Shown: positions 2,536-48,610 of the stretch, in pieces
How the letters are laid out: each line of letters starts with the position of its first letter
Position numbering within the stretch: position 1 is the stretch's first letter
IMG/VR virus record: IMGVR_UViG_3300044856_000241
Span: 32,001 to 96,000 of that record
DNA from: a virus
Lineage: Duplodnaviria; Caudoviricetes
Length of the DNA: 64,000 bases
Strand: one strand, 5' to 3'
Made by a program: the position numbers and the translations under genes
The notes under the pieces: generated by a model
What the model was told of the DNA's origin: nothing
Databases searched by the model: none
What the model saw: only the letters and a program-made list of their open reading frames with translations

Positions 2536-4515
2536 TTAAGAAATCATAGAAAGAAGTTCTTGCTCAGTGATAATTGGTATATTTAACTGAATAGCCTTCT
2601 TATTTTTACTACTTGTTGAATTCGGGTTGTTATTTACAAGATATGATGTTTTAGCACTTACGCTACCAGATACTTTCCCGCCAAGTGACTCAATTTGTGC
2701 TTTTGCTTCATCACGGTTATTGAAATGCTCAAGACTACCAGTAATGACGAATGTTTTACCTGCTAATTCTTTCTTTACACCAAGCATTTTGAAGATTGGT
2801 TCTGGTTTCTGGAATTCGAATTCTTCTGCCAGTGCATAAATTTCATAACAATCTCGTGAGAAATACTGATTCAATGAATTAATCAGTGAATCCCCAATGC
2901 CAGGAATATGGCGGAAGAACTCAGCTCCAGATACAATCATGCCTCGTGTGAATGATTCATAGTTATAATCCTCAGCTTGTGCGATTGCTTTACTTGCTGT
3001 TTTACCCAACAACGGTATAGATAAGCTATACAGGAATCTGTCAAGTGTAGTTTTTCTACTGTTTTCAATTGAAGCTAATAATTTGGTAACTGATTTCGAT
3101 CCGAAACCTTCAAGATTTTTCATACGGAGTTCGTAATCTTTTAGATGATAGATATCTTTGATGGATTTAAGCCATCCAAGAGAAATGAATTTGTCAATAG
3201 TTGCTTCTGAAAGACCTTCAATATTTAACGCGTTTCTGGAGACCGCATGACTAAGTCTACCGAGAAGTTTTCCAACACATGCTGGATTTGTGCAAATGAG
3301 AACTTCAGAATCATTTTCTTTAATAATTTTTGTCTCACCGCCACAGATAGGGCATGTTGATGGGATTGTAAAATTACCAGACTTATCAATACTTTCATGT
3401 ACTTTTGGAATTACCTTGTTAGACCGATAAATTCTAATCCTATCTCCAATTCCAAGCATCATTTTTTTGATATATGTAATATTATGAAGCGTAGCTCTTG
3501 TTGTGAGTGCACCTTCCAAATTAACAGGCTCAAAAACTGCCACTGGATTAATCAATCCAGATTTTGATGTGTTCCATTCAATATCAATAAGTTTTGTTTC
3601 GTATAATTCATCTTCATATTTATATGCAATTGAATGACGGAAGAACTTATCTGTACGACCAGTTGATTCAGCTAATTTATAATCATCAATTGCCAAGACA
3701 GCTCCATCATAAGGAATATTTTTCTCGTCTGCGACATTCTGTAGATTTTCTAGCATGTTTGGAAGATCCTCTTTGTCAGATGAATTATTTACATATGTCC
3801 ACATTGGGATAATTTCGAAACCATTTTTCTCTGCTTCTTTTAAGTCTTCAAATACTGATTTATGTCCAAAACCTTTAATGACACGCCATGCTACAAATCT
3901 CATATCACGTTTAGCAGCTTCTTTGCTATCTAACATCGTCAAACTACCAGATACAAGATTGCGTGGATGCTCATATTTCTTGCCAGTTAATGAATCATTA
4001 ATCCTCTGAAATGTGTCCCATCCAATAATTGTTTCGCCATCAATAATCAATTCATCTTTATAATCAATTTCTTTTGGAATATTTTTGATTGTAAGTACGT
4101 TATGATAACAATCATATCCTTTATCTCCACTACCTCTTGTTTCAGCTGATACTAATTTGCCGTTTAAATATCGAAGTGTTGTTGAAAGACCATCAGCTTT
4201 TACTGATAAAATACAAGCTTTGTTACCAGCAAAATCAATTAATCCATCAATCTGCTTAGTCTTGTCTAAAGATAACATTAAATGATTATGCGGTACTTCT
4301 TTTAATTTATCAATAACTGTGTACCCGACGTTCTGTGTTGGACTATTAGGATAGATGATACAAGTTTCTTTCTCAAGAAGTTGTAACTCTTCATACATTT
4401 CATCCCAATCATAATCGCTAATAATAGGTTCTGAATTATAATAAGCATTAGATGCTTCATTTAATAGATAAATTAGTTTTTTAATTCTTTCAATATTATT
4501 TGTGCTTTCTCTCAA
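2536..4515 (-). CDS. ligA: NAD-dependent DNA ligase
   Basis: MLSLDK, KADGLS adenylation motif, TRGSG, Zn finger CPICG..C..C, HhH repeats, C-terminal BRCT (FVITG...GSVS). Confidence 0.96.
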   Translation of the reverse strand: MRESTNNIERIKKLIYLLNEASNAYYNSEPIISDYDWDEMYEELQLLEKETCIIYPNSPTQNVGYTVIDKLKEVPHNHLMLSLDKTKQIDGLIDFAGNKACILSVKADGLSTTLRYLNGKLVSAETRGSGDKGYDCYHNVLTIKNIPKEIDYKDELIIDGETIIGWDTFQRINDSLTGKKYEHPRNLVSGSLTMLDSKEAAKRDMRFVAWRVIKGFGHKSVFEDLKEAEKNGFEIIPMWTYVNNSSDKEDLPNMLENLQNVADEKNIPYDGAVLAIDDYKLAESTGRTDKFFRHSIAYKYEDELYETKLIDIEWNTSKSGLINPVAVFEPVNLEGALTTRATLHNITYIKKMMLGIGDRIRIYRSNKVIPKVHESIDKSGNFTIPSTCPICGGETKIIKENDSEVLICTNPACVGKLLGRLSHAVSRNALNIEGLSEATIDKFISLGWLKSIKDIYHLKDYELRMKNLEGFGSKSVTKLLASIENSRKTTLDRFLYSLSIPLLGKTASKAIAQAEDYNYESFTRGMIVSGAEFFRHIPGIGDSLINSLNQYFSRDCYEIYALAEEFEFQKPEPIFKMLGVKKELAGKTFVITGSLEHFNNRDEAKAQIESLGGKVSGSVSAKTSYLVNNNPNSTSSKNKKAIQLNIPIITEQELLSMIS

Positions 4516-4740: not shown

Positions 4741-5358
4741 TTATTCCTCATTATGTAAACTATAGAAATATTCGTTATATGCGTCATATCTTGCCTGAAT
4801 GTTTAACCAATTAATCTTTTTGCCATTGTCTTCTGCCCATTTGATAAAATCAGTAATTTTACCACAGCATCCAAATTCAGGACAACCTGCTCTATACACA
4901 CAATTCGGCACCAGCACGTCTGATAGCTCCTTTTCGTGTTTTCTTAATGTTGTTTTAAAATCTTCCATATACTTTCTAGTTTCTGGATGAGCTTGATTGC
5001 ATAATCTATATCTTGCAACATTTATACAAGCTTGCGCATTTCCTTCGCCGTCATAATTTACCAAAGCATCCTGTGGTAAATTGTCTCTGTTTCTTCCAGT
5101 TCTGTCATCTCTTTGTGTACTTATCCATTTGTCCCATCCAAGCCAATGCCTAGAAAAATGTACTGAAATCCATGATTTAATTCCTTTCCATCTCCATTTA
5201 ATTTTAATAAGTCTAATTGGAGAATGTTCTGAAATTAATATTTTCTTTTTAAAATCAGTTGTCGTTTCTTTATTGGAATATTCTTTATTAATCGTATTAC
5301 GGCATTCATTTTTAACATCAATCCAATCGGCTGTTACTTTTGTTATGTTTGTTAGCAT
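4741..5358 (-). CDS. thyX: Flavin-dependent thymidylate synthase ThyX
   Basis: EHSP and RH-x8-STQR ThyX motifs, RLC..A..ETR, C..GCPE. Confidence 0.85.
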   Translation of the reverse strand: MLTNITKVTADWIDVKNECRNTINKEYSNKETTTDFKKKILISEHSPIRLIKIKWRWKGIKSWISVHFSRHWLGWDKWISTQRDDRTGRNRDNLPQDALVNYDGEGNAQACINVARYRLCNQAHPETRKYMEDFKTTLRKHEKELSDVLVPNCVYRAGCPEFGCCGKITDFIKWAEDNGKKINWLNIQARYDAYNEYFYSLHNEE

Positions 5359-6172
5359 TTTTATTATTTCCTCTTCTTATATACTTTCTTCCAGATTTTA
5401 ATTTTTCAAAATATCCTTCCGGAGCTATGTTTATAAATGTTTTCCCGTACCATATATCATTAAATGTACTCCTGTTTAATTCAGAATGCTTTTGATATAC
5501 TTCACTTGGAGATAATTCTTCATTAATATAATCTTCTCTAATAGACATTACATGCTTAATTGTTGAGTTATATATTCCGCTGTTGTATATTTTATAGTCA
5601 TTGCCTTTTTTCGCATATTCTTTCTTTAGTTCTTCCGTATATACATCCATATGAATGTTTTTATAGCGATATCCTCTCCATATATTTATAAATGCAGAAT
5701 ATGATATTTTATTTTTATATGTGATATATATATCTTTCGGATCTAATGCTTTTGAATATGCTTCTCTAATATCATAAATGTCTTTGTTTGATAATTTTGC
5801 GTTTGGATGTTCCTCACCACATTTAGTTGGCGCAGTGTCTGTTTCATATGTACTATTGTACCCATTGTTAACAGAATCATATTTCAATATAAATTCATAT
5901 TCTTTTTTTAACATTGTGTCAATGTCTTTTGTTTCATAAATACATGATACATCCCAATCGTCAAAATCATATTTTCTTAATGCATTATAAAAATGAGAAT
6001 TATAATTTGAATCATTTAGATTATTGCTATGCCTTAGGTGTTCTCCAATTCTTTGATATATATTTTTACTTCTTCCTATATAACTTTTTCCTGTTAGTTT
6101 ATTCGTAAATTTATATATACCAGATATGTTATTTAAAAAGGCATATTTATCATAAAAATATATTTTTTTAAT
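5318..6172 (-). CDS. Free-standing GIY-YIG homing endonuclease (probable ATT start at 6172)
   Basis: Frame stays open upstream of the listed ORF (5318..5914) and reads SGIYKFTNKLTGKSYIGRS...RIGEH; NNGYN motif; GEEHPNAKL DNA-binding repeat; GAGGTG RBS 6 nt before ATT. Confidence 0.85.
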   Translation of the reverse strand: MKKIYFYDKYAFLNNISGIYKFTNKLTGKSYIGRSKNIYQRIGEHLRHSNNLNDSNYNSHFYNALRKYDFDDWDVSCIYETKDIDTMLKKEYEFILKYDSVNNGYNSTYETDTAPTKCGEEHPNAKLSNKDIYDIREAYSKALDPKDIYITYKNKISYSAFINIWRGYRYKNIHMDVYTEELKKEYAKKGNDYKIYNSGIYNSTIKHVMSIREDYINEELSPSEVYQKHSELNRSTFNDIWYGKTFINIAPEGYFEKLKSGRKYIRRGNNKNANKHNKSNSRLD

Positions 6173-26648: not shown

Positions 26649-26717
26649 AAGACACACTTCCGGTATCCCATCCGGTTAATTTATTATGTCGAAATAATAA
26701 TTTGCTGTATGTGTCTT
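26649..26717 (-). ncRNA. ACAGCAA-motif hairpin RNA unit A
   Basis: AAGACACA/TGTGTCTT stem followed by TACAGCAA. Confidence 0.75.
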
Positions 26718-26725
26718 TCTTATCC

Positions 26726-26779
26726 TAGATACATTTTTCTTTCGATGCTTGGAAATTAATAATTGCTGTGTTGTATCTA
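26726..26779 (-). ncRNA. ACAGCAA-motif hairpin RNA unit B
   Basis: TAGATACA/TGTATCTA stem followed by ACACAGCAA. Confidence 0.75.
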
Positions 26780-26793
26780 TATCTATATATTCT

Positions 26794-28314
26794 CTACGCC
26801 ACCAGATCTTTTACCGCATTCTCAACTGGTGCGTATCTTTCAGAATTTAATTGCTCCAGTAAACACTCAAATGGATCTGTACTGTTACTCAATACCATTT
26901 TCACAATTGCAGGACTGAAACCACTTACAAGTGCTACACCAGCCTCATTCTCTTTTACCGGAATTGTGCCAGTACGACTCATGATATTCCAGAATACTAA
27001 TCTTGGAAGTTTATATCCATGAGCTTCATATCTATCAGCCAGTTCTTCGAATAATCTCTTATCAGTACGTCCAGAAGTCATACGATCAAATTCTAAATCT
27101 GAAAGTACCAGTACATTCTGTGGCATATCATCCTGAGTCATCTCATTCCTGATCGCTGTCTGGAGAATCAGATCAAATGTTGCTTCAATATTTGTATTTG
27201 TCATCTCACAATGATTCAGCGCAATCTCAATTTTCTCACGCAATGAATCGGCATTGCTAAAATCAACAATCTGCGGGTGACTACTAAACGTAATATATGT
27301 ATCTTTGAACTGTCCAGAACTTCTCTCTGCAAAGTAAATGGCTAATGCATTTGCCACACTAAGAGCTGTGACATTCGTACCACCAATTCTTGAAGTCATA
27401 CTTCCTGATCCATCAGCTACACAAATTGTATTTCCTGTTCCGCTAACGTAATCAGGCAATGCTTTCCAAAGCTGTTCAAGTGTCGGATCATCAACAGGTG
27501 ACAAGTTCCATCTACTTGAGCCATACTTATGTACAATATCATGCGGGAATAAAACACCGGCATTGATTTTTGTTTCGCCTTTTTCTAACTTATTCAAGTA
27601 TTCTCTACGTCTTTCCTCATCATTTCGTAAGAAAGCATTGTTGTAAATTAGATTTGCTCTTGACGGAACAGCTGCATAATCAATTTTATCCCACTGTTTT
27701 GCAGACATTTTAACTTCAACCACATTCAGGTACGCACGGAGCTCGGATAACATTTTTCTATATTGTCTGTCTGTGAAAATGATGTTATCCATGATGATAT
27801 GTGCCAATCGTTTTGTCTCTTTTGAAGAGGTGTTAGCACTTGGCATCCATTTAGCAAGAAGCGAAATCGGTTTACTCTGCTTCATATTTACACCATCTTC
27901 TAAGAGCTGATGTACTACTACTTCACACACATCATCTTTTAAATCAGTGTCCAATAAACACCATAAATCATCCCAACGTCCATATTCAGGAACCAGTTTA
28001 ATTACTTCCTTGGCAATATCCTGATGATTCTCTGCAAGATATTTTATACAAGTTCTAAACAGTCTTCTCTCGCCAATTCCCTCTCTACAATCACGGCAAT
28101 AAAATAACCATTTCATTGCCAAAATTTTGTCCTCATAGAACGCTTTTACGAACTTTTCAACGATTTTTTCTTCGCTCATGTTCCTCATAGATGATACTGA
28201 AAAGTTTAAATCAAGAAGTTCTTTACCTGATGTTCTATAACCAAGAGCACCATTCTCAGTAACTGAATAATTGAAGTCATCATTCAGTGTTTCTTTTAAA
28301 TTTTTCATAAACAT
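26794..28314 (-). CDS. DUF2828-family protein: helical TROVE-like N-terminus plus vWA domain (Ro60-like architecture)
   Basis: TENGA, RD.R.G.GER, AKWMP, MIDAS DGSGSM, TN, SDLEFD, FWN, VSGFS. Confidence 0.85.
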   Translation of the reverse strand: MFMKNLKETLNDDFNYSVTENGALGYRTSGKELLDLNFSVSSMRNMSEEKIVEKFVKAFYEDKILAMKWLFYCRDCREGIGERRLFRTCIKYLAENHQDIAKEVIKLVPEYGRWDDLWCLLDTDLKDDVCEVVVHQLLEDGVNMKQSKPISLLAKWMPSANTSSKETKRLAHIIMDNIIFTDRQYRKMLSELRAYLNVVEVKMSAKQWDKIDYAAVPSRANLIYNNAFLRNDEERRREYLNKLEKGETKINAGVLFPHDIVHKYGSSRWNLSPVDDPTLEQLWKALPDYVSGTGNTICVADGSGSMTSRIGGTNVTALSVANALAIYFAERSSGQFKDTYITFSSHPQIVDFSNADSLREKIEIALNHCEMTNTNIEATFDLILQTAIRNEMTQDDMPQNVLVLSDLEFDRMTSGRTDKRLFEELADRYEAHGYKLPRLVFWNIMSRTGTIPVKENEAGVALVSGFSPAIVKMVLSNSTDPFECLLEQLNSERYAPVENAVKDLVA

Positions 28315-28361
28315 AATTCTTTTTCTCCTTTTGAATCAAAATTAGTAGTAACTTTGATTCC

Positions 28362-28418
28362 TAGACGGCATGGAAAATAGATTAACAGTCTATACCAAAA
28401 AATTGCTGTAGCCGTCTA
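28362..28418 (-). ncRNA. ACAGCAA unit C with Asn(GUU) anticodon-loop mimic
   Basis: TAGACGGC/GCCGTCTA stem, TACAGCAA, inner ATAGA-CTGTTAA-TCTAT. Confidence 0.8.
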
Positions 28419-28431
28419 AAGAATCATTTAC

Positions 28432-28488
28432 AAGATAGCTATATGTTAATATTCTCCGCTTGAATTAAATATTTGCTGTAACTATCTT
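28432..28488 (-). ncRNA. ACAGCAA unit D
   Basis: AAGATAG/CTATCTT stem followed by TTACAGCAA. Confidence 0.75.
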
Positions 28489-28491
28489 CAA

Positions 28492-28607
28492 CGACAGGAA
28501 CAGGACTCGAACCTGTATCAATGCCTGGACGTGGAATAAATATCGCTGTTAATGTCTATTACAAGACATATTTTTTTCACCGTTTTAACCAATTAAACTA
28601 TCCCGTC
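28492..28607 (-). ncRNA. tRNA-like unit E with ACAGCGA module in place of the anticodon loop
   Basis: Acceptor GACGGGA/TCCTGTC, D-arm, T-arm ACAGG-TTCGAGT-CCTGT; insert ATGTCT/AGACAT followed by TAACAGCGA. Confidence 0.8.
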
Positions 28608-28684
28608 ATGTGAGTATTCTCATACGGCAATACAAGAATACTCAGCTTGCAACTTATTAACTTACTTCCCACAAAGAAAGGAGC

Positions 28685-28743
28685 TAGACGGTTTTGGTTA
28701 GTAAATTAAAAGTCTTCTCCAATAAGTTTGCTGTATCCGCCTA
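28685..28743 (-). ncRNA. ACAGCAA unit F with Lys(UUU)-like loop
   Basis: TAGGCGG/CCGTCTA stem (G-U pair only on the minus strand), TACAGCAA, inner GACTTTTAAT. Confidence 0.75.
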
Positions 28744-28748
28744 TATAC

Positions 28749-28813
28749 AAGACACTTAGCCACTTGGCATTTGATTTGCAATCAAATTGTTCAATGTTGC
28801 TGTTTTGTGTCTT
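28749..28813 (-). ncRNA. ACAGCAA unit G with Cys(GCA) anticodon-loop mimic
   Basis: AAGACAC/GTGTCTT stem, ACAGCAA, inner ATTTGA-TTGCAAA-TCAAAT. Confidence 0.8.
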
Positions 28814-28815
28814 AA

Positions 28816-28934
28816 TGGAGATGGAGAGATTCGAACTCCCGACAAATGGTTACCCTTAATTAATATTTGCTGTTGATGTCTTATACAAAACACACATAAT
28901 ATTTCCATCGCTCTACCAACTGAGCTACATCTCC
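28816..28934 (-). ncRNA. tRNA-like unit H with ACAGCAA module in the anticodon arm
   Basis: GGAGATG/CATCTCC acceptor, TAGCTCAGTTGGTAGAGC D-arm, GGGAG-TTCGAAT-CTCTC T-arm; insert ...AAGACATCAACAGCAA. Confidence 0.82.
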
Positions 28935-29012
28935 GTATGAATTCCTTCCTATTATAATAAGGAAGAAACTCATGTTATTTGTAACAATACGTTTTCCACA
29001 GAAAGGAGATCC

Positions 29013-29072
29013 TAGACGGTATCTGGGTTGCAAATTAAAAGTTGTTCCAAAGAAAATTGCTGTTACCGCCTA
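29013..29072 (-). ncRNA. ACAGCAA unit I (paralog of F) with Lys(UUU)-like loop
   Basis: TAGGCGGTA/TACCGTCTA stem, ACAGCAA, inner CAACTTTTAATTTG. Confidence 0.75.
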
Positions 29073-29085
29073 TTTTGTTGTGGAA

Positions 29086-29256
29086 TCACCGGATCTGGGT
29101 TCGAACCAGAATCTGCATCGTCCATTAAATTAAAATTTGCTGTAAGCGGATGACTATGTATCAAAAAGAAAAGAGAGGATTTTATGAAAGTATATGTTAT
29201 TTTTTCTATCCGCTTTTTAATTGTGATGCTGTTTTACCAATTGAAACTATCCAGTG
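29086..29256 (-). ncRNA. tRNA-like unit J with ACAGCAA module and long pyrimidine-rich loop
   Basis: CACTGGA/TCCGGTG acceptor, D-arm, GCATC/GATGC stem, AAGCGGAT/ATCCGCTT then ACAGCAA, TCTGG-TTCGAAC-CCAGA T-arm. Confidence 0.8.
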
Positions 29257-29260
29257 TAAA

Positions 29261-29383
29261 TTGTAGGGGCTGGATTCGAACCAGCGAAACCATAGGTGTC
29301 AGATTTAGAGTCTGATTTGCTGTTAGTGATTATACCTAATCACATTTTTCTTCTGATGCGTTTAGCCACTTCGCTACCCTACA
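29261..29383 (-). tRNA. Tyr-type tRNA body with CUA (amber) anticodon and a 41-nt ACAGCAA insertion (unit K)
   Basis: TGTAGGG/CCCTACA acceptor, TAGCGAAGTGGCTAAACGC D-arm, TCAGA-CTCTAAA-TCTGA anticodon arm, long variable arm, GCTGG-TTCGAAT-CCAGC T-arm. Confidence 0.78.
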
Positions 29384-29391
29384 ATGTAATC

Positions 29392-29447
29392 GAGACACTT
29401 TATTATCATCCGTATTATAATATTTTAACATTTGCTGTTAGTGTCTC
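29392..29447 (-). ncRNA. ACAGCAA unit L
   Basis: GAGACACT/AGTGTCTC stem followed by AACAGCAA. Confidence 0.75.
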
Positions 29448-29455
29448 ATCTTTAC

Positions 29456-29521
29456 TAGATTCCATATTTATGTATTCTCTATTAATGAATTAATTTCTTG
29501 AATATTTGCTGTTGGAATCTA
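29456..29521 (-). ncRNA. ACAGCAA unit M
   Basis: TAGATTCCA/TGGAATCTA stem followed by ACAGCAA. Confidence 0.75.
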
Positions 29522-29528
29522 AATGTTC

Positions 29529-29594
29529 AAGACGATATCATATTTGTTTGCCAGTATTATCTTTAATATTTTGTAAAATTGCTGTGATCGTCTT
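29529..29594 (-). ncRNA. ACAGCAA unit N
   Basis: AAGACGAT/ATCGTCTT stem followed by CACAGCAA. Confidence 0.75.
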
Positions 29595-29601
29595 ATTTAT
29601 A

Positions 29602-31423: not shown

Positions 31424-32780
31424 TTATACATTTGTATGTTTCATATATGAGATAAGTTCATAAGGATTATTCTTAATCTCTCCGTTGATAACCATATTAA
31501 GTAAATGATTTAACCAATATCCAACCATTTTCCCAGAACATCCCATATATTTCATAACATCATTGCCATTTACTGCTAAATCCTTTAACGAAAAGCACTG
31601 TTCTTCACTTAATATATTCTCCAGAAGTTCTTCGATTTTCTGAATTTTACCAAGTCTTTTTTCTTTATATTCTGGATTTTGTGCTGAGACATCAGCTTTA
31701 CGAAGCTCTAATAATCGTCTAAATTGTTCTTCTCCAATACGATTCAACCAACGTTTGATATATTTTCCTCCGACCTCGAATGTTGAATCATGATAATATA
31801 CAAGCTGCACAACCTTTTCTCTGGTATCATTGTCAAAACGAAGTCGTTTCATAATCTTGTCTGTCATATCTGCGCTTACTTTTCCATGACCTTTGAAATG
31901 TCCAACACCATTCTCATCTTCTGTATAACAGTGTGGTTTACCGATATCATGAAAGAATACTGCCAGGCATGTGATTAAGTCATCTGAATCACAATACTGT
32001 ATTGCATGAACTGTATGATTCCATACATTATTAACATGATACGGATTATTCTGCTCAAATCCGAACATATCTTTAATCTCCGGAATAAACTGGGCAAGTA
32101 CACCATCGTACAAAACCATCTGAATACAAAAATCTGGTGCAACAATCATTTTACAAAACTCACTATTAATTCTCTCAGTAGATGTATTCTCTAAACTTTT
32201 ATATAAATGACTTGCTTCATAACCTGCCTCAGCATCAATCACAAATTCTAACTGAGAAGCGAATCTCATTGCACGTAAAATTCGTAAGGCATCCTCGGTA
32301 AAGCGATCTTTTGCAACGCCAACACATCGAATAAAATGATCTTCAATGTCTTGCATTCCATTAAACGGATCAATTAATCCATCTTTTTCGTTATATGCCA
32401 TAGCATTAATGGTGAAATCCCGTCTGCTTAGATCTTCAATAAGATTGCTTGTGAACTCTACAGAATCAGGATGTCTTCCATCTGAATATTCTCCGTCCCT
32501 TCTGTACGTTGTGATTTCATACCCAACATTATCAATCATTACAGTGACCGTACCATGTTGAATACCGGTAGGAATTACTTTGTATCCTTTGCTTTCAAAA
32601 AGTGAAAAAATTTCATTTATTGTAACTGGCGTACAGATGTCCCAATCATGCACTGGTCTCCCCATAATACTGTCTCTTACACTGCCGCCTACGATGTAAG
32701 CCGTACTTCCGTATTTTCCGATTACTTTGAAAAATTTCTTTTACAGCTTCCGGAAGTTCAATTCTAATATCTTTACTCAT
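31424..32780 (-). CDS. cca: CCA tRNA nucleotidyltransferase with HD domain; +1 frameshift near 32730
   Basis: GGSVRD..DWD, DLSRRDFTINAMA, ED.LR.LR, HDIGK; N-terminus MSKDIRIELPEAVKEIF is in a different frame. Confidence 0.85.
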
Positions 32781-34638: not shown

Positions 34639-34711
34639 TACGGGAGGCACGAGTCGAACGTGCCGCAACTGATTTATAAGATCAGCCCCATCACCGCTTG
34701 GGTACTCCCGC
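34639..34711 (-). tRNA. tRNA-Ile (UAU)
   Basis: GCGGGAG/CTCCCGT, CTGAT-CTTATAA-ATCAG, GCACG-TTCGACT-CGTGC; no encoded CCA. Confidence 0.8.
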
Positions 34712-34823
34712 TTATTGAATATCATCACAACAGCGACAATGTGCGAAACCAGAAAAAAATGAAGCGAAAGAAAGGATTTACTGCCGTGATAATATTCAAT
34801 TGCCAAAATATTTACTTGATTAA

Positions 34824-34896
34824 CGGGGCTAGTAGGATTTGAACCTACGAATACCACATTCAAAGTGTGGAGCCTTAACCGCTTGGCGATAGCCCT
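34824..34896 (-). tRNA. tRNA-Gln (UUG)
   Basis: GCCAAGCGGTTAAGGC D-arm, CCACA-CTTTGAA-TGTGG, GTAGG-TTCAAAT-CCTAC. Confidence 0.88.
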
Positions 34897-34902
34897 ATGG
34901 TT

Positions 34903-35059
34903 GCACCGAGAGCGGAGCTATGCACAACTCCCAATTGATTAACTTCATACGATACTTTCTTGTAGGTCTAATTTAAATTTTACATCCAAGTACTAGGATT
35001 ATCTCAGATGACAATATCCTCTCGTATTTAATTAAACAAATGTTGCATACTCTCGATGC
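34903..35059 (-). ncRNA. Unidentified ~157-nt structured RNA between tRNAs
   Basis: Closing stem GCATCGAGAG/CTCTCGGTGC, TATGCA/TGCATA, ATACGA/TCGTAT and internal hairpins. Confidence 0.5.
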
Positions 35060-35062
35060 TAA

Positions 35063-35135
35063 TACGCCCACCCAGAGTCGGACTGGGAATCGCTGTGTAT
35101 AAGACAGGTGCAACGTACCGCATCACCTTGGGCGC
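35063..35135 (-). tRNA. Degenerate tRNA-Ile (UAU)-like gene
   Basis: GCGCCCA/TGGGCGT, loop CTTATAC, T-loop TCCGACT (non-canonical), weak D-arm. Confidence 0.6.
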
Positions 35136-35497
35136 ATATTTGTGGTAGTTGTTTCTTCCTTATTATAGGGATGACTCGTTCCAACCCACCACGTAATAAC
35201 GAGTGTAAGTTTATATTTATTTATTTTCCATCAATTTACTAAAAACTCTGAATCAACAGCCAGATCATTGTTGGATAATATATAATATCTACTATAGAAA
35301 AAAGTAACTCTCTAAATCTATTAACTGAGAACTCTTCGCCTTTTTCTAATTTTGTAGCATATGAACTATAGTCGAAAATGTTAATAATACAACTTACTAC
35401 TTCAATAATTGACATAATAAGTGCAAAATTATTGTCTGCAAATCTCATTCCGAGTTTTGCATAGATAATTCCGAGAATTATGTAAATAATCCAACCA

Positions 35498-47177: not shown

Positions 47178-47270
47178 TTATTTATTCTTTTTTAACTTTC
47201 CTACGACAAAACCTGCTCCAAAACACGCACCAAAACAAATTAGGAAGATTCCGATATTTAATACGATCAT
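47178..47270 (-). CDS. 30-aa single-pass membrane peptide
   Basis: MIVLNIGIFLICFGACFGAGFVVGKLKKNK; TGATG-coupled to the PspA-like gene and followed by a hairpin at 47143-47172. Confidence 0.55.
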   Translation of the reverse strand: MIVLNIGIFLICFGACFGAGFVVGKLKKNK

Positions 47271-48019
47271 CACTTATTACCTCTCTGTCTCTTCATGTCA
47301 TCAAGAATCTGACGAGCATTACGTTCTCTTTCAGAATTAGCAAGTCTTCTTTCATTAGCCTGTGCACTAGAATCATATGCAATTCTACTTCCTTCGGCAC
47401 GTTCTCTAGTTTTTCTAGCCCCCTCACGGACTCTTTCAAGCATTCTATCACTCTCATTGTTTGTGTTGAGATTGTCCATGCTCTGATGAAGTTCAATAAT
47501 CTGACTATCTGCTTCCATTTGGAAAAGTACTTGTTCTTTTTCCTCTTTTAATTTCTGTAAATCTTCTGCTGCCTGATCACGAATTTCTTTCTGATGAGCC
47601 TGTGCTACTTTCATTTCTTCAATGGCATCTTTTAACACATTAATCTTATTCTCTAAAGTAGATTTCTTCATCGCATACTGCATTGCTTCATCTTCCTTAT
47701 TCTCATCAAGACAAGCATTAATCTGCTGTGTAACACGCATAATATCTTTGTTTGCTTGATACATATCTTTTTCTGCTGTATCACGTTTTCCAGAAATATC
47801 AGCATATGTAATAGAAGCTTTGTTATAGAAATCTTCTTTTTCTCTGATTGCAGCATTATAATAATCTCTTGCCCCTTCTGGAGTTTGCGCATCTTGGCGC
47901 ATTACTTCATCTGTTCTGCCACGAAGTTTTACACGAAGCTGTTTCCCAAATGGAGTAAAGAACAGAACTGCTGCAATTAAAATAATCGCCACAATCACAA
48001 TAAACATAAAATTTGTCAT
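47270..48019 (-). CDS. PspA/IM30-like coiled-coil protein with N-terminal TM
   Basis: TM segment followed by long heptad coiled coil, P..A..YY..AI. Confidence 0.6.
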   Translation of the reverse strand: MTNFMFIVIVAIILIAAVLFFTPFGKQLRVKLRGRTDEVMRQDAQTPEGARDYYNAAIREKEDFYNKASITYADISGKRDTAEKDMYQANKDIMRVTQQINACLDENKEDEAMQYAMKKSTLENKINVLKDAIEEMKVAQAHQKEIRDQAAEDLQKLKEEKEQVLFQMEADSQIIELHQSMDNLNTNNESDRMLERVREGARKTRERAEGSRIAYDSSAQANERRLANSERERNARQILDDMKRQRGNK

Positions 48020-48028
48020 AAATTCCTC

Positions 48029-48610
48029 CTACTCTGCGTCAATTCCGTACTGATTGCAAAGTGCTTTTAATCCGCCGTTATAACCACTACCTACCGCTTT
48101 AAACTTCCATTCGCTGTTGTGTTTGTAAATTTCTGCCACGACTAAAGCTGTCTCAGTAGAAAAATCCTCACTTAAATCAAAACGGATAAGTTCTTCTCCT
48201 GTTTCTTCATCAACAACGTGAATATATGCGTTCCCAACCATACCAAAATTCTGGAGTCTGGTTTCAGCATCATAAATAGTTACCGTTACAGCAAGAGTCT
48301 CGTATCCTGATGGGATCTTATCAAGACTAATTTTGATAACTTCATCATCGCCCTCTCCTTCACCTGTACGATTATCTCCCATATGTTTTACGCTCTTGGA
48401 ACCGTGCTCAAGATTACCATAGAAGACAAAATCCTCATCTTTTCCTACTTTACCATTCTCTTTTGTCATAAATACAGAAGCGTCAAGATCAAAATCCGCT
48501 TCTCCGTCATAATGGTTAATATCCCATCCCAAACCAATAAGAATATTTTTTAGTGATGGTCTGCCTTTTGTTAAGTCCACTCTCTGTCCCTTACTTAATG
48601 AAACTGACAT
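48029..48610 (-). CDS. TerD-family stress protein
   Basis: GLGWD, DLDAS, GDNRTGEGEGDDE, WKFKAVG. Confidence 0.93.
   Translation of the reverse strand: MSVSLSKGQRVDLTKGRPSLKNILIGLGWDINHYDGEADFDLDASVFMTKENGKVGKDEDFVFYGNLEHGSKSVKHMGDNRTGEGEGDDEVIKISLDKIPSGYETLAVTVTIYDAETRLQNFGMVGNAYIHVVDEETGEELIRFDLSEDFSTETALVVAEIYKHNSEWKFKAVGSGYNGGLKALCNQYGIDAE

What the first reader, a model, noticed from the sequence alone, without database searches (positions are those of the whole stretch)
28492..29383. Four tRNA bodies carry the same motif grafted into the anticodon arm in circularly permuted form
Seen: units E, H, J and K have intact acceptor, D and T arms, but the anticodon arm is extended by the ACAGC module. 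In stand-alone units the stem before ACAGC closes the molecule. In these four, that stem is capped by a loop and the other side connects to the tRNA elbow. E, H and J have no recognisable anticodon loop. Established: YrlA RNAs join a Ro-binding stem to a tRNA-like domain with a closed acceptor stem. Inference: this is the opposite topology. A free acceptor end could be processed by RNase P and the phage CCA enzyme, which would also cut the polycistronic array into units, and might be aminoacylated or act as a decoy tethered to DUF2828.
Basis: partly seen in the sequence, partly recalled or inferred. Interest (0 to 1): 0.85.

Follow-up and report, generated by a model that had tools for sequence, protein, structure and literature searches.

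The report
tRNA-shaped partner RNAs of phage Ro60
Four tRNA-shaped genes beside a phage gene for a Ro60-like ring protein carry that protein's presumed RNA docking handle inside the anticodon arm, which makes them a back-to-front (circularly permuted) and apparently undescribed form of the tRNA-mimicking Y RNAs that partner Ro60 in bacteria.

Summary
On the minus strand, four units have a 7-bp acceptor stem, D arm and T arm: K 29260-29384, J 29086-29256, H 28816-28934, E 28491-28608. A hairpin followed by ACAGCAA/ACAGCGA interrupts each anticodon arm. Only K keeps an anticodon loop (CUA).

- **Same module elsewhere:** with its helix opened it closes ten stand-alone RNAs around the adjacent 506-aa gene. 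That gene's product is predicted to fold like Ro60.
- **Conservation:** at least 47 of 68 related phage loci hold tRNA bodies carrying the module. The stems show compensatory changes and the motif is nearly invariant, so this is not decay.
- **Topology:** Enterococcus, Mycobacterium and E. coli phages carry the same module on YrlA-type RNAs, which are permuted tRNAs with a closed acceptor stem. Rotated at the acceptor loop, these align end to end with the native-topology units.
- **Reading (confidence 0.7):** unspliced Ro60-partner RNAs with a free acceptor end. They are neither intron-bearing tRNAs nor pseudogenes.
- **Untested:** binding, processing, CCA addition and charging. No RNA data were found.

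I found no Rfam family or paper describing this form. The scan has already noted the same thing on other DNA (e.g. e1-5686463, e1-5319592, e1-5951843), with the same reading. I class it as a new variant of a known kind.

The parts
29260..29384 (-). Unit K: a type-II (long variable arm) tRNA body with the module inserted between the D arm and the anticodon stem. S hairpin 29326-29343, ACAGCAA 29317-29323, intact anticodon stem-loop 29299-29315 (CUA), T arm 29269-29285. The 5' strand of the anticodon stem (ATCAGA) occurs twice, at 29352-29357 and 29311-29316.
   Evidence: ARAGORN with a 41-nt insert. The MFE fold gives a cloverleaf plus extra hairpin, z = -3.2. Coordinates checked. The T stem differs from the sister phage L001 by fully compensatory changes.
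29086..29256 (-). Unit J: a tRNA body. Anticodon stem gcatc/gatgc (29225-29229 / 29115-29119) is extended by the helix AATTAAAA/TTTTAATT (29215-29222 / 29128-29135). The S helix gcggat/atccgc (29208-29213 / 29146-29151) is capped by a 56-nt loop. ACAGCAA 29137-29143, T arm 29094-29110. No anticodon loop.
   Evidence: ARAGORN with a 100-nt insert. Fold. Coordinates. The homologue L002:3283-3406 has a 5-nt cap loop. In L001 a TnpB element interrupts J after its first 13 nt.
28816..28934 (-). Unit H: a tRNA body. Anticodon stem gatgg/ccatt is extended by AATATT/AATATT. S hairpin 28876-28893, ACAGCAA 28867-28873, T arm 28824-28840. No anticodon loop.
   Evidence: Rfam tRNA 53.8 bits with a 55-nt insertion. 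ARAGORN. Fold.
28491..28608 (-). Unit E: a tRNA body. S hairpin 28552-28569, ACAGCGA 28543-28549, T arm 28500-28516. No anticodon loop.
   Evidence: ARAGORN with a 37-nt insert. Rfam tRNA 21.6 bits, partial. The L001 counterpart has a compensatory S helix, ATATCTT/AAGATAT.
29391..29595 (-). Three stand-alone handle RNAs at 29528-29595, 29456-29521 and 29391-29448. Each is a 9-bp closing helix, then ACAGCAA, then 32-42 nt.
   Evidence: long-range perfect helices of 9 bp.
29013..29072 (-). Stand-alone handle RNA between J and H, with helix TAGGCGGTA/TACCGTCTA.
28685..28814 (-). Two stand-alone handle RNAs between H and E, at 28748-28814 and 28685-28743. The first displays a Cys-like anticodon stem-loop, tttgaTTGCAAAtcaaa.
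28361..28488 (-). Two stand-alone handle RNAs, at 28432-28488 and 28361-28419. The last one displays an Asn-like loop (atagaCTGTTAAtctat) and ends 47 nt before the start codon.
26794..28314 (-). Gene for a 506-aa Ro60-like protein (Pfam DUF2828 + DUF7788/vWA; phrog_850 'RNA-binding protein'). It is the presumed partner of all handle RNAs.
   Evidence: Pfam and PHROGs. AF2 model with pLDDT 77. The 12 best Foldseek PDB matches (all with E < 0.001) are Ro60/TROVE structures, best E 3.7e-7. The MIDAS residues D301, S303, S305 and D406 are invariant in 18 homologues.
26649..26779 (-). Two further stand-alone handle RNAs just after the stop codon, at 26726-26779 and 26649-26717.
31424..32665 (-). 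Phage tRNA nucleotidyltransferase (CCA-adding enzyme), 3 kb upstream on the same strand. It is an inferred accessory: none of the three canonical tRNA genes checked in the window, nor the four units, encodes CCA.
   Evidence: Pfam PolyA_pol + tRNA_NucTran2_2 + HD; phrog_2244. 3' ends read.

Best explanation
E, H, J and K are partner RNAs (Y-RNA-like) of the adjacent Ro60-like protein. They are built as tRNA mimics in the native tRNA order.

Each joins two parts. The first is a docking handle: a 6-9-bp helix of consensus GnGUCU(W)G / (W)AGACnC, followed after 0-3 nt by an unpaired ACAGCAA. The second is a tRNA body. In bacterial YrlA the handle holds the RNA's two ends and the acceptor stem is closed by a loop. 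Here the chain is opened at the acceptor stem and the handle is capped by a loop, so the handle projects from the anticodon arm.

Proposed course of events:
1. The array is transcribed with the Ro60-like gene. This is inferred from the shared strand, the absence of any terminator-like site on that strand, and the last unit ending 47 nt before the start codon.
2. RNase P and 3' processing, followed by the phage CCA-adding enzyme, cut out the tRNA-shaped units and so free the stand-alone units between them. This is inferred from the 7-bp acceptor plus 5-bp T stems, from the back-to-back spacing of K and J (3 nt), and from the M. smegmatis YrlA precedent.
3. The Ro60-like ring binds the handle. 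This is inferred from strict co-occurrence across phage lineages.
4. The tRNA-shaped part engages a host factor that recognises tRNA, either as a tether (as Y RNA tethers Ro60 to PNPase) or as a decoy in the contest over tRNAs. This step is speculative.

The insert stays in the mature RNA.
For: **Partner protein.** It is Ro60-like by predicted fold, although Pfam files it only under DUF2828 and DUF7788.

**Association of handle and gene.** In 67 viral loci whose proteins are 46-98% identical to the window's, the motif array lies on the gene's strand next to it. No neighbouring protein gene is conserved across these loci. The same handle flanks the gene in Enterococcus phage A2, Mycobacterium phage Enceladus, Bacillus phage KoopaTroopa and E. 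coli phage wV8.

**The class is conserved.** At least 47 of 68 loci have tRNA bodies carrying the handle. In an alignment of 35 distinct units, RNAalifold recovers the acceptor, D, handle and T helices. Twenty of the 22 pairs have compensatory changes. U8, G10, A14, G18, the T loop and the C-GC-A positions of the motif are invariant. A closing helix of at least 8 bp is found at 49% of motifs, against 13% after shuffling.

**True circular permutation.** YrlA-type units carry the same handle; Rfam YrlA scores them 45.1 and 39.8 bits (E 3e-7 and 1e-5). Rotated at the acceptor loop they align end to end with native-topology units.

**Against splicing.**
- E, H and J give no canonical anticodon arm under any deletion.
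- The insert lies in the 5' strand of the anticodon stem (26/27 or 28/29), not in the loop.
- The insert is the best-conserved part.
- No RtcB or RNA-ligase family was found in the complete phage genome.
- No body is a near copy of a canonical tRNA; the best identity is 0.69-0.82.

**Literature.** Y RNAs that mimic tRNA are encoded next to Ro60 in bacteria and 22 phages, and M. smegmatis YrlA is cut by RNase P and receives CCA (PMC4201824). Thermus phage phiLo Ro60 binds two phage Y-like RNAs and host PNPase (PMC12135203). In phage Bas63, the Ro60-like gp130 lies next to the tRNA genes and counters the Ppl defence (bioRxiv 10.1101/2024.10.10.617714).
Against: - There are no RNA data at all, so transcription, the ends of the RNAs, CCA addition and retention of the insert are not shown.
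- Binding of the handle to the protein is inferred from co-occurrence only.
- K would become a clean suppressor tRNA if its insert were removed. So would 33 of 56 related units, whose 7-nt anticodon-like loops obey tRNA rules (U33, and G37 after G36). Removal or a decoding role therefore cannot be excluded for these.
- The sequence of the handle (ACAGCAA) is not the GNCGAA motif that marks the Ro60 site of YrlA, and Rfam's YrlA model does not align to it.
- J is interrupted by a TnpB element in the sister phage L001, so single units are dispensable.
- Thermodynamic z-scores are modest for H, E and J (-1.0 to -1.7).
Confidence: 0.7

Rival explanations
1. They are tRNA genes with a new kind of small removable insert. 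The hairpin+ACAGCAA segment would be cut out and the halves joined, perhaps with the Ro60-like protein as a helper, to give working tRNAs. For K the product would be a Tyr-like amber suppressor.
For: Deleting 41 nt from K leaves a perfect cloverleaf with anticodon CUA. In 33 of 56 related units a 7-nt anticodon-like loop survives, with its stem split by the insert. The short stems next to these loops covary, e.g. ggt/acc, ggg/ccc and cca/tgg around CUGUUAA. Related phages do hold tRNAs with other short inserts at the anticodon.
Against: E, H and J yield no canonical anticodon arm. The insert sits in the stem, not at position 37/38. At 30-100 nt as ARAGORN delimits it, and with no Rfam intron match, it is not a group I intron. 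The same module closes RNAs that contain no tRNA at all, and it holds the ends of YrlA-type RNAs. No RNA ligase or RtcB is encoded. The units mostly lack the encoded CCA that canonical tRNAs of the same loci have: 19 of 22 lack it. TAG is an ordinary stop here, so a constitutive suppressor would be harmful.
Confidence: 0.12
2. They are working tRNAs that keep the handle as an extra arm. They would be charged and used, or withheld, in translation, with the Ro60-like protein acting as escort or gate. In K and its Tyr-like relatives the duplicated 5' strand of the anticodon stem would give two exclusive folds, one with and one without a presented anticodon.
For: The acceptor, D and T arms and the tertiary-pair nucleotides are intact. 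K folds with a canonical anticodon stem-loop beside the handle. In four divergent Tyr-like units the duplicated strand changes together with the stem: TCAGA, AGAGA, TGGA and CGGA. A few relatives encode CCA.
Against: E, H and J have no anticodon loop. No known tRNA carries a 40-100-nt arm at positions 26-29, and ribosome fit is doubtful. The phage uses TAG as a stop in 14 of 65 long ORFs, including the Ro60-like gene itself.
Confidence: 0.1
3. They are decaying tRNA pseudogenes hit by a repeated, perhaps mobile, sequence, and have no function as RNAs.
For: Unit content differs even between phages whose Ro60-like proteins are 98% identical. J is interrupted by a TnpB element in L001. K and H show short direct repeats at the borders of the insert.
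Against: Compensatory changes keep all helices intact. tRNA invariants and the motif are conserved across proteins only 59-98% identical. The units always lie on the strand of, and next to, the Ro60-like gene. No empty-site copies exist.
Confidence: 0.04

Closest known systems
YrlA-type Y RNAs with Ro60/Rsr in bacteria and phages (Rfam RF02553; Chen et al. 2014, PMC4201824)
   Same: Encoded next to a Ro60-family gene and on its strand. A protein-binding stem is joined to a tRNA-like domain with T arm, D arm and acceptor-like stem. They are accompanied by shorter RNAs that carry only the binding stem (YrlB-like). In relatives of this phage's protein, the same handle sits on RNAs that Rfam's YrlA model detects at E 3e-7 and 1e-5.
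   Different: The chain is opened at the acceptor stem instead of at the binding stem, giving native tRNA order with free acceptor ends. The handle is helix+ACAGCAA, not GNCGAA, and the YrlA model does not align to it. The partner protein is of the DUF2828/DUF7788 family, with no Pfam TROVE match. There are up to 14 RNAs per locus. The YrlA model cannot score the window's units; its only hit (20.8 bits, 29203-29306) joins the T arm of K to the D arm of J, which is the 'dimeric tRNA' false positive that the authors warn of.
[quoted passage not shown]
   Same: The end product has a free, CCA-tailed acceptor end and a Ro60-binding stem in the place of the anticodon arm.
   Different: That form arises by cutting a closed acceptor loop and leaves two pieces. 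Here the one-piece form is encoded directly.
Deinococcus radiodurans Yrn1 (PMC4201824)
   Same: A Y RNA whose tRNA-like arms run in the other order relative to the RNA ends than in YrlA. This shows that topology varies among Y RNAs.
   Different: In Yrn1 the Ro60-binding stem takes the place of the acceptor stem and an anticodon-like arm lies between D and T. Here the acceptor stem is real and the handle is in the anticodon arm.
Thermus phage phiLo Ro60 with Yrl1/Yrl2 (PMC12135203; PDB 9KOP, 9L5Y)
   Same: A phage Ro60 homologue with Y-like RNAs encoded just upstream. 9KOP and 9L5Y are among the best structural matches to the model of the window's protein.
   Different: Yrl1 and Yrl2 are stem-bulge-stem RNAs with a CGAA motif, and the paper does not describe them as tRNA-shaped.
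tmRNA and viral tRNA-like structures
   Same: A tRNA-like acceptor/T domain with free ends joined to a non-tRNA module in place of the anticodon region.
   Different: There is no mRNA-like part or pseudoknot set here. ARAGORN finds no tmRNA. The added module is a protein handle shared with non-tRNA RNAs.

Membership tests
Y RNA, YrlA type (Rfam RF02553) | Encoded near a Ro60-family gene and on the same strand | tested here: met
   The units lie 177-1070 nt upstream of the Ro60-like gene (26794-28314) on the minus strand. The same holds in 67 related loci.
Y RNA, YrlA type (Rfam RF02553) | tRNA-like domain with T arm, D arm and acceptor-like stem | tested here: met
   ARAGORN and Rfam tRNA. U8, A14, G18 and the T loop are conserved.
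Y RNA, YrlA type (Rfam RF02553) | The 5' and 3' ends lie in the Ro60-binding stem, and the acceptor-like stem is closed by a loop | tested here: not met
   The topology is the opposite: the ends lie in the acceptor stem and the handle is capped.
Y RNA, YrlA type (Rfam RF02553) | GNCGAAN0-1G motif in the 5' strand of the binding stem | tested here: not met
   The motif is ACAGCAA (ACAGCGA in E) following the helix. In phage A2 the YrlA model does not align to the handle.
Y RNA, YrlA type (Rfam RF02553) | Score at or above Rfam's gathering threshold (69 bits) | tested here: not met
   The only window hit scores 20.8 bits across two neighbouring units. Permuted relatives score 45.1 and 39.8 bits.
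Y RNA, YrlA type (Rfam RF02553) | Physically bound by the Ro60 protein | not testable with these tools
   Needs co-purification or a gel shift.
tRNA (Rfam RF00005) | Cloverleaf with 7-bp acceptor stem, D arm, T arm and invariant nucleotides | tested here: met
tRNA (Rfam RF00005) | 5-bp anticodon stem with a 7-nt loop (U33, purine 37) | tested here: not met
   Absent in E, H and J. Present in K only beside a 41-nt insert.
tRNA (Rfam RF00005) | Score at or above Rfam's gathering threshold (29 bits) | tested here: inconclusive
   H scores 53.8 bits. E (21.6) and K (19.6) fall below. J has no hit.
tRNA (Rfam RF00005) | Aminoacylation and decoding | not testable with these tools
   Needs acid-urea gels and a suppression reporter.
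Intron-bearing bacterial or phage tRNA (group I intron) | Self-splicing intron core in the anticodon loop | tested here: not met
   The inserts are 30-100 nt as ARAGORN delimits them, with no Rfam intron hit. The position is in the 5' strand of the anticodon stem.
Intron-bearing bacterial or phage tRNA (group I intron) | Removal leaves a canonical tRNA | tested here: not met
   True for K only. ARAGORN's best solutions for E, H and J have mismatched stems and arbitrary anticodons.
Ro60/TROVE protein family (partner protein) | HEAT-repeat ring followed by a vWA domain with a MIDAS site | tested here: met
   The 12 best Foldseek matches are Ro60/TROVE structures (E 3.7e-7 to 1.6e-4, TM 0.38-0.56). 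The DxSxS...D residues are invariant.
Ro60/TROVE protein family (partner protein) | Match to Pfam TROVE (PF05731) | tested here: not met
   Only DUF2828, DUF7788, and weak VWA_2 and vWA_Ro60 matches. A profile search of PDB sequences found no Ro60.

The most novel reading that the evidence does not exclude
The tRNA-shaped handle RNAs are matured like tRNAs, receive CCA and are charged, so the Ro60-like ring rides on, or gates, a chargeable tRNA. In K and its Tyr-like relatives the covarying duplicate of the anticodon-stem strand would make a two-state switch. The result would be a protein-controlled amber suppressor in a phage that otherwise reads TAG as stop.
Probability: 0.1. Interest if true: 0.9.

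Novelty: new variant of a known kind. Interest (0 to 1): 0.66.

Why it matters
Ro60 and its Y RNAs are a conserved but poorly understood RNA-surveillance particle, and Ro60 is a major human autoantigen.

- **A second handle.** This locus suggests that the large phage protein family filed as DUF2828 is a Ro60 relative with its own RNA handle. Homologues occur in 705 phage records.
- **Both circular orders.** Evolution has joined that handle to tRNA bodies in both possible orders. The native order gives a Y-like RNA with a real, free acceptor end. That makes it directly testable whether such RNAs are processed by RNase P, CCA-tailed, charged, or used as decoys for tRNA-directed host defences.
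- **Tractable relatives.** Felix-O1-like coliphages and Enterococcus Schiekvirus phages carry the permuted form. A Ro60-like gene of coliphage Bas63 already has a counter-defence phenotype.
- **Annotation.** tRNA finders miss these genes or call them intron-bearing tRNAs. In coliphage wV8 an annotated CDS overlaps one.

Tried and rejected
- **RNA evidence:** no RNA holder was listed for 28380-29600, so expression, ends and splicing could not be examined.
- **Promoters and terminators:** the scan gave no more sites than shuffles.
- **TAG recoding as a reason for K:** rejected. TAG ends 14 of 65 long ORFs. The three ORFs with mid-frame TAG give no sign of read-through: one resolves into two separate domains (TerD, then PspA), in one the single domain ends before the TAG, and one has no Pfam match.
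- **RNA repair or ligation genes in the 203.6-kb genome:** RtcB and RNA_ligase were not found. The Rnl1 search was uninformative because its control rang nowhere.
- **Recent origin from a canonical tRNA, or an empty-site copy:** none found. Best identity was 0.69-0.82. K is not a copy of the phage's own tRNA-Tyr.
- **Conserved protein-coding neighbours:** none beyond the sister phage L001.
- **Encoded CCA as a sign of tRNA-like maturation:** it does not hold. The units mostly lack CCA even where canonical tRNAs in the same locus have it.
- **The weak YrlA hit at 29203-29306:** an artefact that joins two neighbouring units.
- **Literature:** 'DUF2828' gave only unrelated plant and animal papers. 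Two reviews (PMC10870794, PMC6047535) and the supplement of PMC4201824 are not held.
- **Thermodynamic stability alone:** not convincing for H, E and J.
Full report
**1. What is there**

The finding lies on the minus strand. Read in that sense, 29600 to 28360 is an array of twelve small units that runs up to the start codon of ORF 26794-28314. Two more units follow the stop codon. ACAGCAAW occurs 20 times in the window against 6.3 expected, and ten of these lie in 28402-29585 on this strand. In the whole 203.6-kb virus record (the window is bases 32001-96000), 15 of the 41 minus-strand ACAGC[AG]A matches lie in the 2.9 kb around this gene.

**2. The four tRNA bodies**

ARAGORN in default mode sees none of them. 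With inserts allowed it finds exactly four in the genome, all here:

| Unit | Coordinates | Insert |
|---|---|---|
| K | 29260-29384 | 41 nt |
| J | 29086-29256 | 100 nt |
| H | 28816-28934 | 30 nt |
| E | 28491-28608 | 37 nt |

Rfam's tRNA model gives H 53.8 bits with 55 nt in place of the anticodon loop. E and K get partial matches of 21.6 and 19.6 bits.

All four have a 7-bp acceptor stem, a D arm with GG, and a 5-bp T stem with a TTCGA loop. None encodes CCA, and neither do the three canonical tRNA genes checked in the window. K and J are 3 nt apart.

Each insert holds a hairpin followed 2 nt later by ACAGCAA (ACAGCGA in E). Coordinates are in the parts list. In H, E and J, sequences on either side of hairpin+motif pair with each other and lengthen the anticodon stem (AATATT/AATATT in H, AATTAAAA/TTTTAATT in J). 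The handle therefore sits at the tip of a long arm with ACAGCAA as a one-sided bulge.

No 7-nt anticodon loop can be placed in E, H or J. K keeps tcaga-CUCUAAA-tctga, anticodon CUA.

**3. Same module, two connectivities**

In the stand-alone units the strand just 5' of ACAGCAA pairs with a strand 29-44 nt downstream (7-9 perfect pairs). In the four tRNA bodies it pairs with a strand just upstream.

Both forms share the consensus GnGUCU(W)G / (W)AGACnC, then 0-3 nt, then ACAGCAA, then a U-rich stretch. Over 352 distinct motif sites in related loci, a closing helix of at least 8 bp is present at 49%, against 13% after shuffling the flanks.

**4. The partner gene**

The 506-aa product matches Pfam DUF2828 and DUF7788 (a vWA domain) and PHROG 850, 'RNA-binding protein'. 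An AlphaFold model built from 18 homologues has pLDDT 77 and pTM 0.73.

Its 12 best matches in the PDB are all Ro60/TROVE structures: Xenopus, human, Deinococcus Rsr and Thermus phage phiLo (E 3.7e-7 to 1.6e-4). vWA/MIDAS domains follow. The MIDAS residues are invariant. There is no Pfam TROVE match, and a profile search of PDB sequences found nothing. The likeness is therefore one of fold.

**5. Relatives**

- A scan of viral contigs gave 67 loci with proteins 46-98% identical. In nearly all of them the motif array lies next to the gene on its strand. No neighbouring protein gene is shared beyond the sister phage L001.
- tRNA bodies with the handle in the anticodon arm occur in at least 47 of 68 loci.
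- An alignment of 35 distinct units keeps U8, G10, A14, G18, the T loop and the C-GC-A positions of the motif invariant. RNAalifold recovers the acceptor, D, handle and T helices, with compensatory changes at 20 of 22 pairs.
- Between the window and L001 (98% identical protein), the T stem of K changes from GCTGG/CCAGC to AAAGG/CCTTT. The handle helix of E changes from ATGTCT/AGACAT to ATATCTT/AAGATAT.

This excludes unconserved decay.

**6. The link to known Y RNAs**

Homologues of the protein (30-41% identical) are present in 705 phage records. In some mycobacteriophages they are annotated 'Ro-like RNA binding protein'.

- **Enterococcus phage A2 and Mycobacterium phage Enceladus.** Rfam's YrlA model gives sub-threshold but significant hits beside the gene: 45.1 and 39.8 bits, E 3e-7 and 1e-5. 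These RNAs begin with the handle's 5' strand plus ACAGCGA or GCAGCAA, and end with its 3' strand. In between come a T arm, an acceptor hairpin and a D arm.
- **E. coli phage wV8.** It has one such RNA and three stand-alone handle RNAs hidden in its tRNA array.
- **Viral contigs L049 and L067** have the same permuted form.

When these permuted RNAs are rotated at the acceptor loop, they align end to end with native-order units:

| Rotated permuted unit | Best native-order match | Identity | Rotated score | Unrotated score |
|---|---|---|---|---|
| A2 | L030:3586 | 73% | 141 | 51 |
| L067 | L036:3776 | 69% | 126.5 | 57.5 |
| L049 | L037:2840 | 63% | 110 | 58.5 |

The window's E, H and K score 80-106 against the best rotated partner, versus 30-54 unrotated and about 48 +/- 7 for shuffled sequence. 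J is weaker.

The connectivity is the same in both forms: the D arm leads into the handle's 3'-type strand, and the handle's 5'-type strand leads through ACAGCAA to the variable region and T arm. Only the place where the chain is open differs.

In a quick tree of the proteins, all loci with native-order units fall in one group of 59 rows (SH-aLRT 90). The permuted form occurs only outside that group. The tree is unrooted and not fully searched, so this is only a hint that a single switch occurred.

**7. Handle or intron?**

Against an intron:
- E, H and J give no tRNA after any deletion.
- The insert lies in the 5' strand of the anticodon stem. In 33 of 56 relatives an anticodon-like loop is kept, and in 26 of these the stem is split by the insert, most often after its second base pair.
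- The insert is the most conserved part.
- The same module occurs in RNAs that contain no tRNA.
- No RtcB or RNA-ligase family is encoded.
- No copy without the insert exists.
- The units mostly lack encoded CCA even where canonical tRNAs of the same locus have it, in 19 of 22 cases.

For some decoding-related role:
- Those 33 relatives keep a 7-nt loop with U33, most with the purine 37 expected from position 36. Examples are CUGUUAA, CUUUUAA and CUUAUAA, and loops with GAG, GUG and NGG anticodons followed by G37. Covarying mini-stems flank them.

These loops are therefore under selection. That fits display of anticodon arms (as decoys or recognition sites) as well as it fits decoding.

**8. 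K**

K is a type-II, Tyr-like body with anticodon CUA. TAG is a normal stop in this phage. It ends 14 of 65 long ORFs, among them the Ro60-like gene. None of the three ORFs with a mid-frame TAG shows a domain spanning the TAG. A constitutive suppressor is therefore unlikely.

In K and three divergent Tyr-like relatives (L002 about 3085, L007:3533, L010:6488), the 5' strand of the anticodon stem is present twice, once on each side of the handle. The duplicate changes together with the stem: TCAGA, AGAGA, TGGA, CGGA. This points to two mutually exclusive pairings. I cannot say what selects for them.

**9. Mechanism**

- **Shown by sequence comparison:** the anatomy, the conservation, the permutation, and the Ro60-like fold of the neighbouring gene's product.
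- **Inferred:** co-transcription; release by RNase P and 3' processing with CCA addition by the phage enzyme at 31424-32665; binding of the handle by the ring protein.
- **Speculative:** the tRNA-shaped part tethers or decoys a tRNA-recognising host factor.

The precedents come from the literature. Y RNA tethers Ro60 to PNPase in Deinococcus and in Thermus phage phiLo (PMC4201824, PMC12135203). M. smegmatis YrlA is cut by RNase P and CCA-tailed (PMC4201824). In phage Bas63, the Ro60-like gp130 counters the Ppl defence, and its authors guessed that some neighbouring 'tRNA genes' are Y RNAs (10.1101/2024.10.10.617714).

**10. Novelty**

Ro60 with tRNA-mimicking Y RNAs is known, including in phages. 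I could not find three things in Rfam 15 or in five literature searches:
- the helix+ACAGCAA handle;
- its tie to the DUF2828 family;
- the native-order, free-acceptor form.

Earlier notes of this scan describe the same class on other genomes and reach the same reading. I reached mine before reading them and tested the claims here. I class it as a new variant of a known kind.

Noticed in passing
L001:1953-3300 (sister phage; corresponds to window about 29013-29256): A TnpB / IS605-OrfB gene (L001:2052-3161; OrfB_IS605 + Cas12f1-like TNB + HTH) sits where units J and I lie in the window. Only the first 13 nt of J and the 3' half of I remain. Single units of the array are therefore dispensable, and the array changes by insertion and loss.
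   Followed up: partly
window 29184-29315, + strand: A 43-codon ORF (MKVYVIFSIRFLIVMLFYQL...) with a strong Shine-Dalgarno sequence starts inside the 56-nt cap loop of unit J. It runs antisense through the 5' half of J and the T arm of K. The homologue of J in L002 has a 5-nt cap loop, so the long loop is a lineage-specific insertion. It could be a small hydrophobic peptide gene or chance.
   Followed up: partly
related loci, e.g. L013:8048-8198, L017:577-741, L033:8815-8961, L008:5600-5732: Otherwise canonical tRNA genes carry 47-93-nt inserts at the anticodon. The inserts have their own T arm and acceptor-like stem, and they end in NCCA, like a mini-tRNA nested in the anticodon loop. They lack the ACAGCAA handle. 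None occurs in the window's own genome.
   Followed up: no
L071 (E. coli phage wV8) 5205-5990: Four unannotated handle RNAs lie between annotated tRNA genes, with motifs at 5222, 5388, 5784 and 5871. The YrlA-type one (about 5861-5989) overlaps the annotated hypothetical CDS gp048 on the other strand, which may be a mis-call.
   Followed up: partly
window K 29311-29316 and 29352-29357; L002 about 3085-3205; L007:3533-3661; L010:6488-6623: In the Tyr-like subclass the 5' strand of the anticodon stem is duplicated on both sides of the handle, and the duplicate covaries with the stem. This implies two exclusive folds. It is unexplained.
   Followed up: partly
window 28620-28660 and 28945-28975, minus strand: Strong hairpins without U tails lie in the spacers before units E and H, each after a conserved CTAG..CCTTTCT..TGTGGAA stretch. 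The pairs 'stand-alone unit + spacer + tRNA body' look like a duplicated cassette.
   Followed up: no
window 47270-48610, minus strand: Adjacent TerD-domain and PspA/IM30-like genes separated by a TAG stop. This is stress-response-type cargo in a phage.
   Followed up: no
window 34639-35136, minus strand: The only canonical tRNA genes in the window: two tRNA-Ile(UAU) and one tRNA-Gln(UUG), none with encoded CCA.
   Followed up: no
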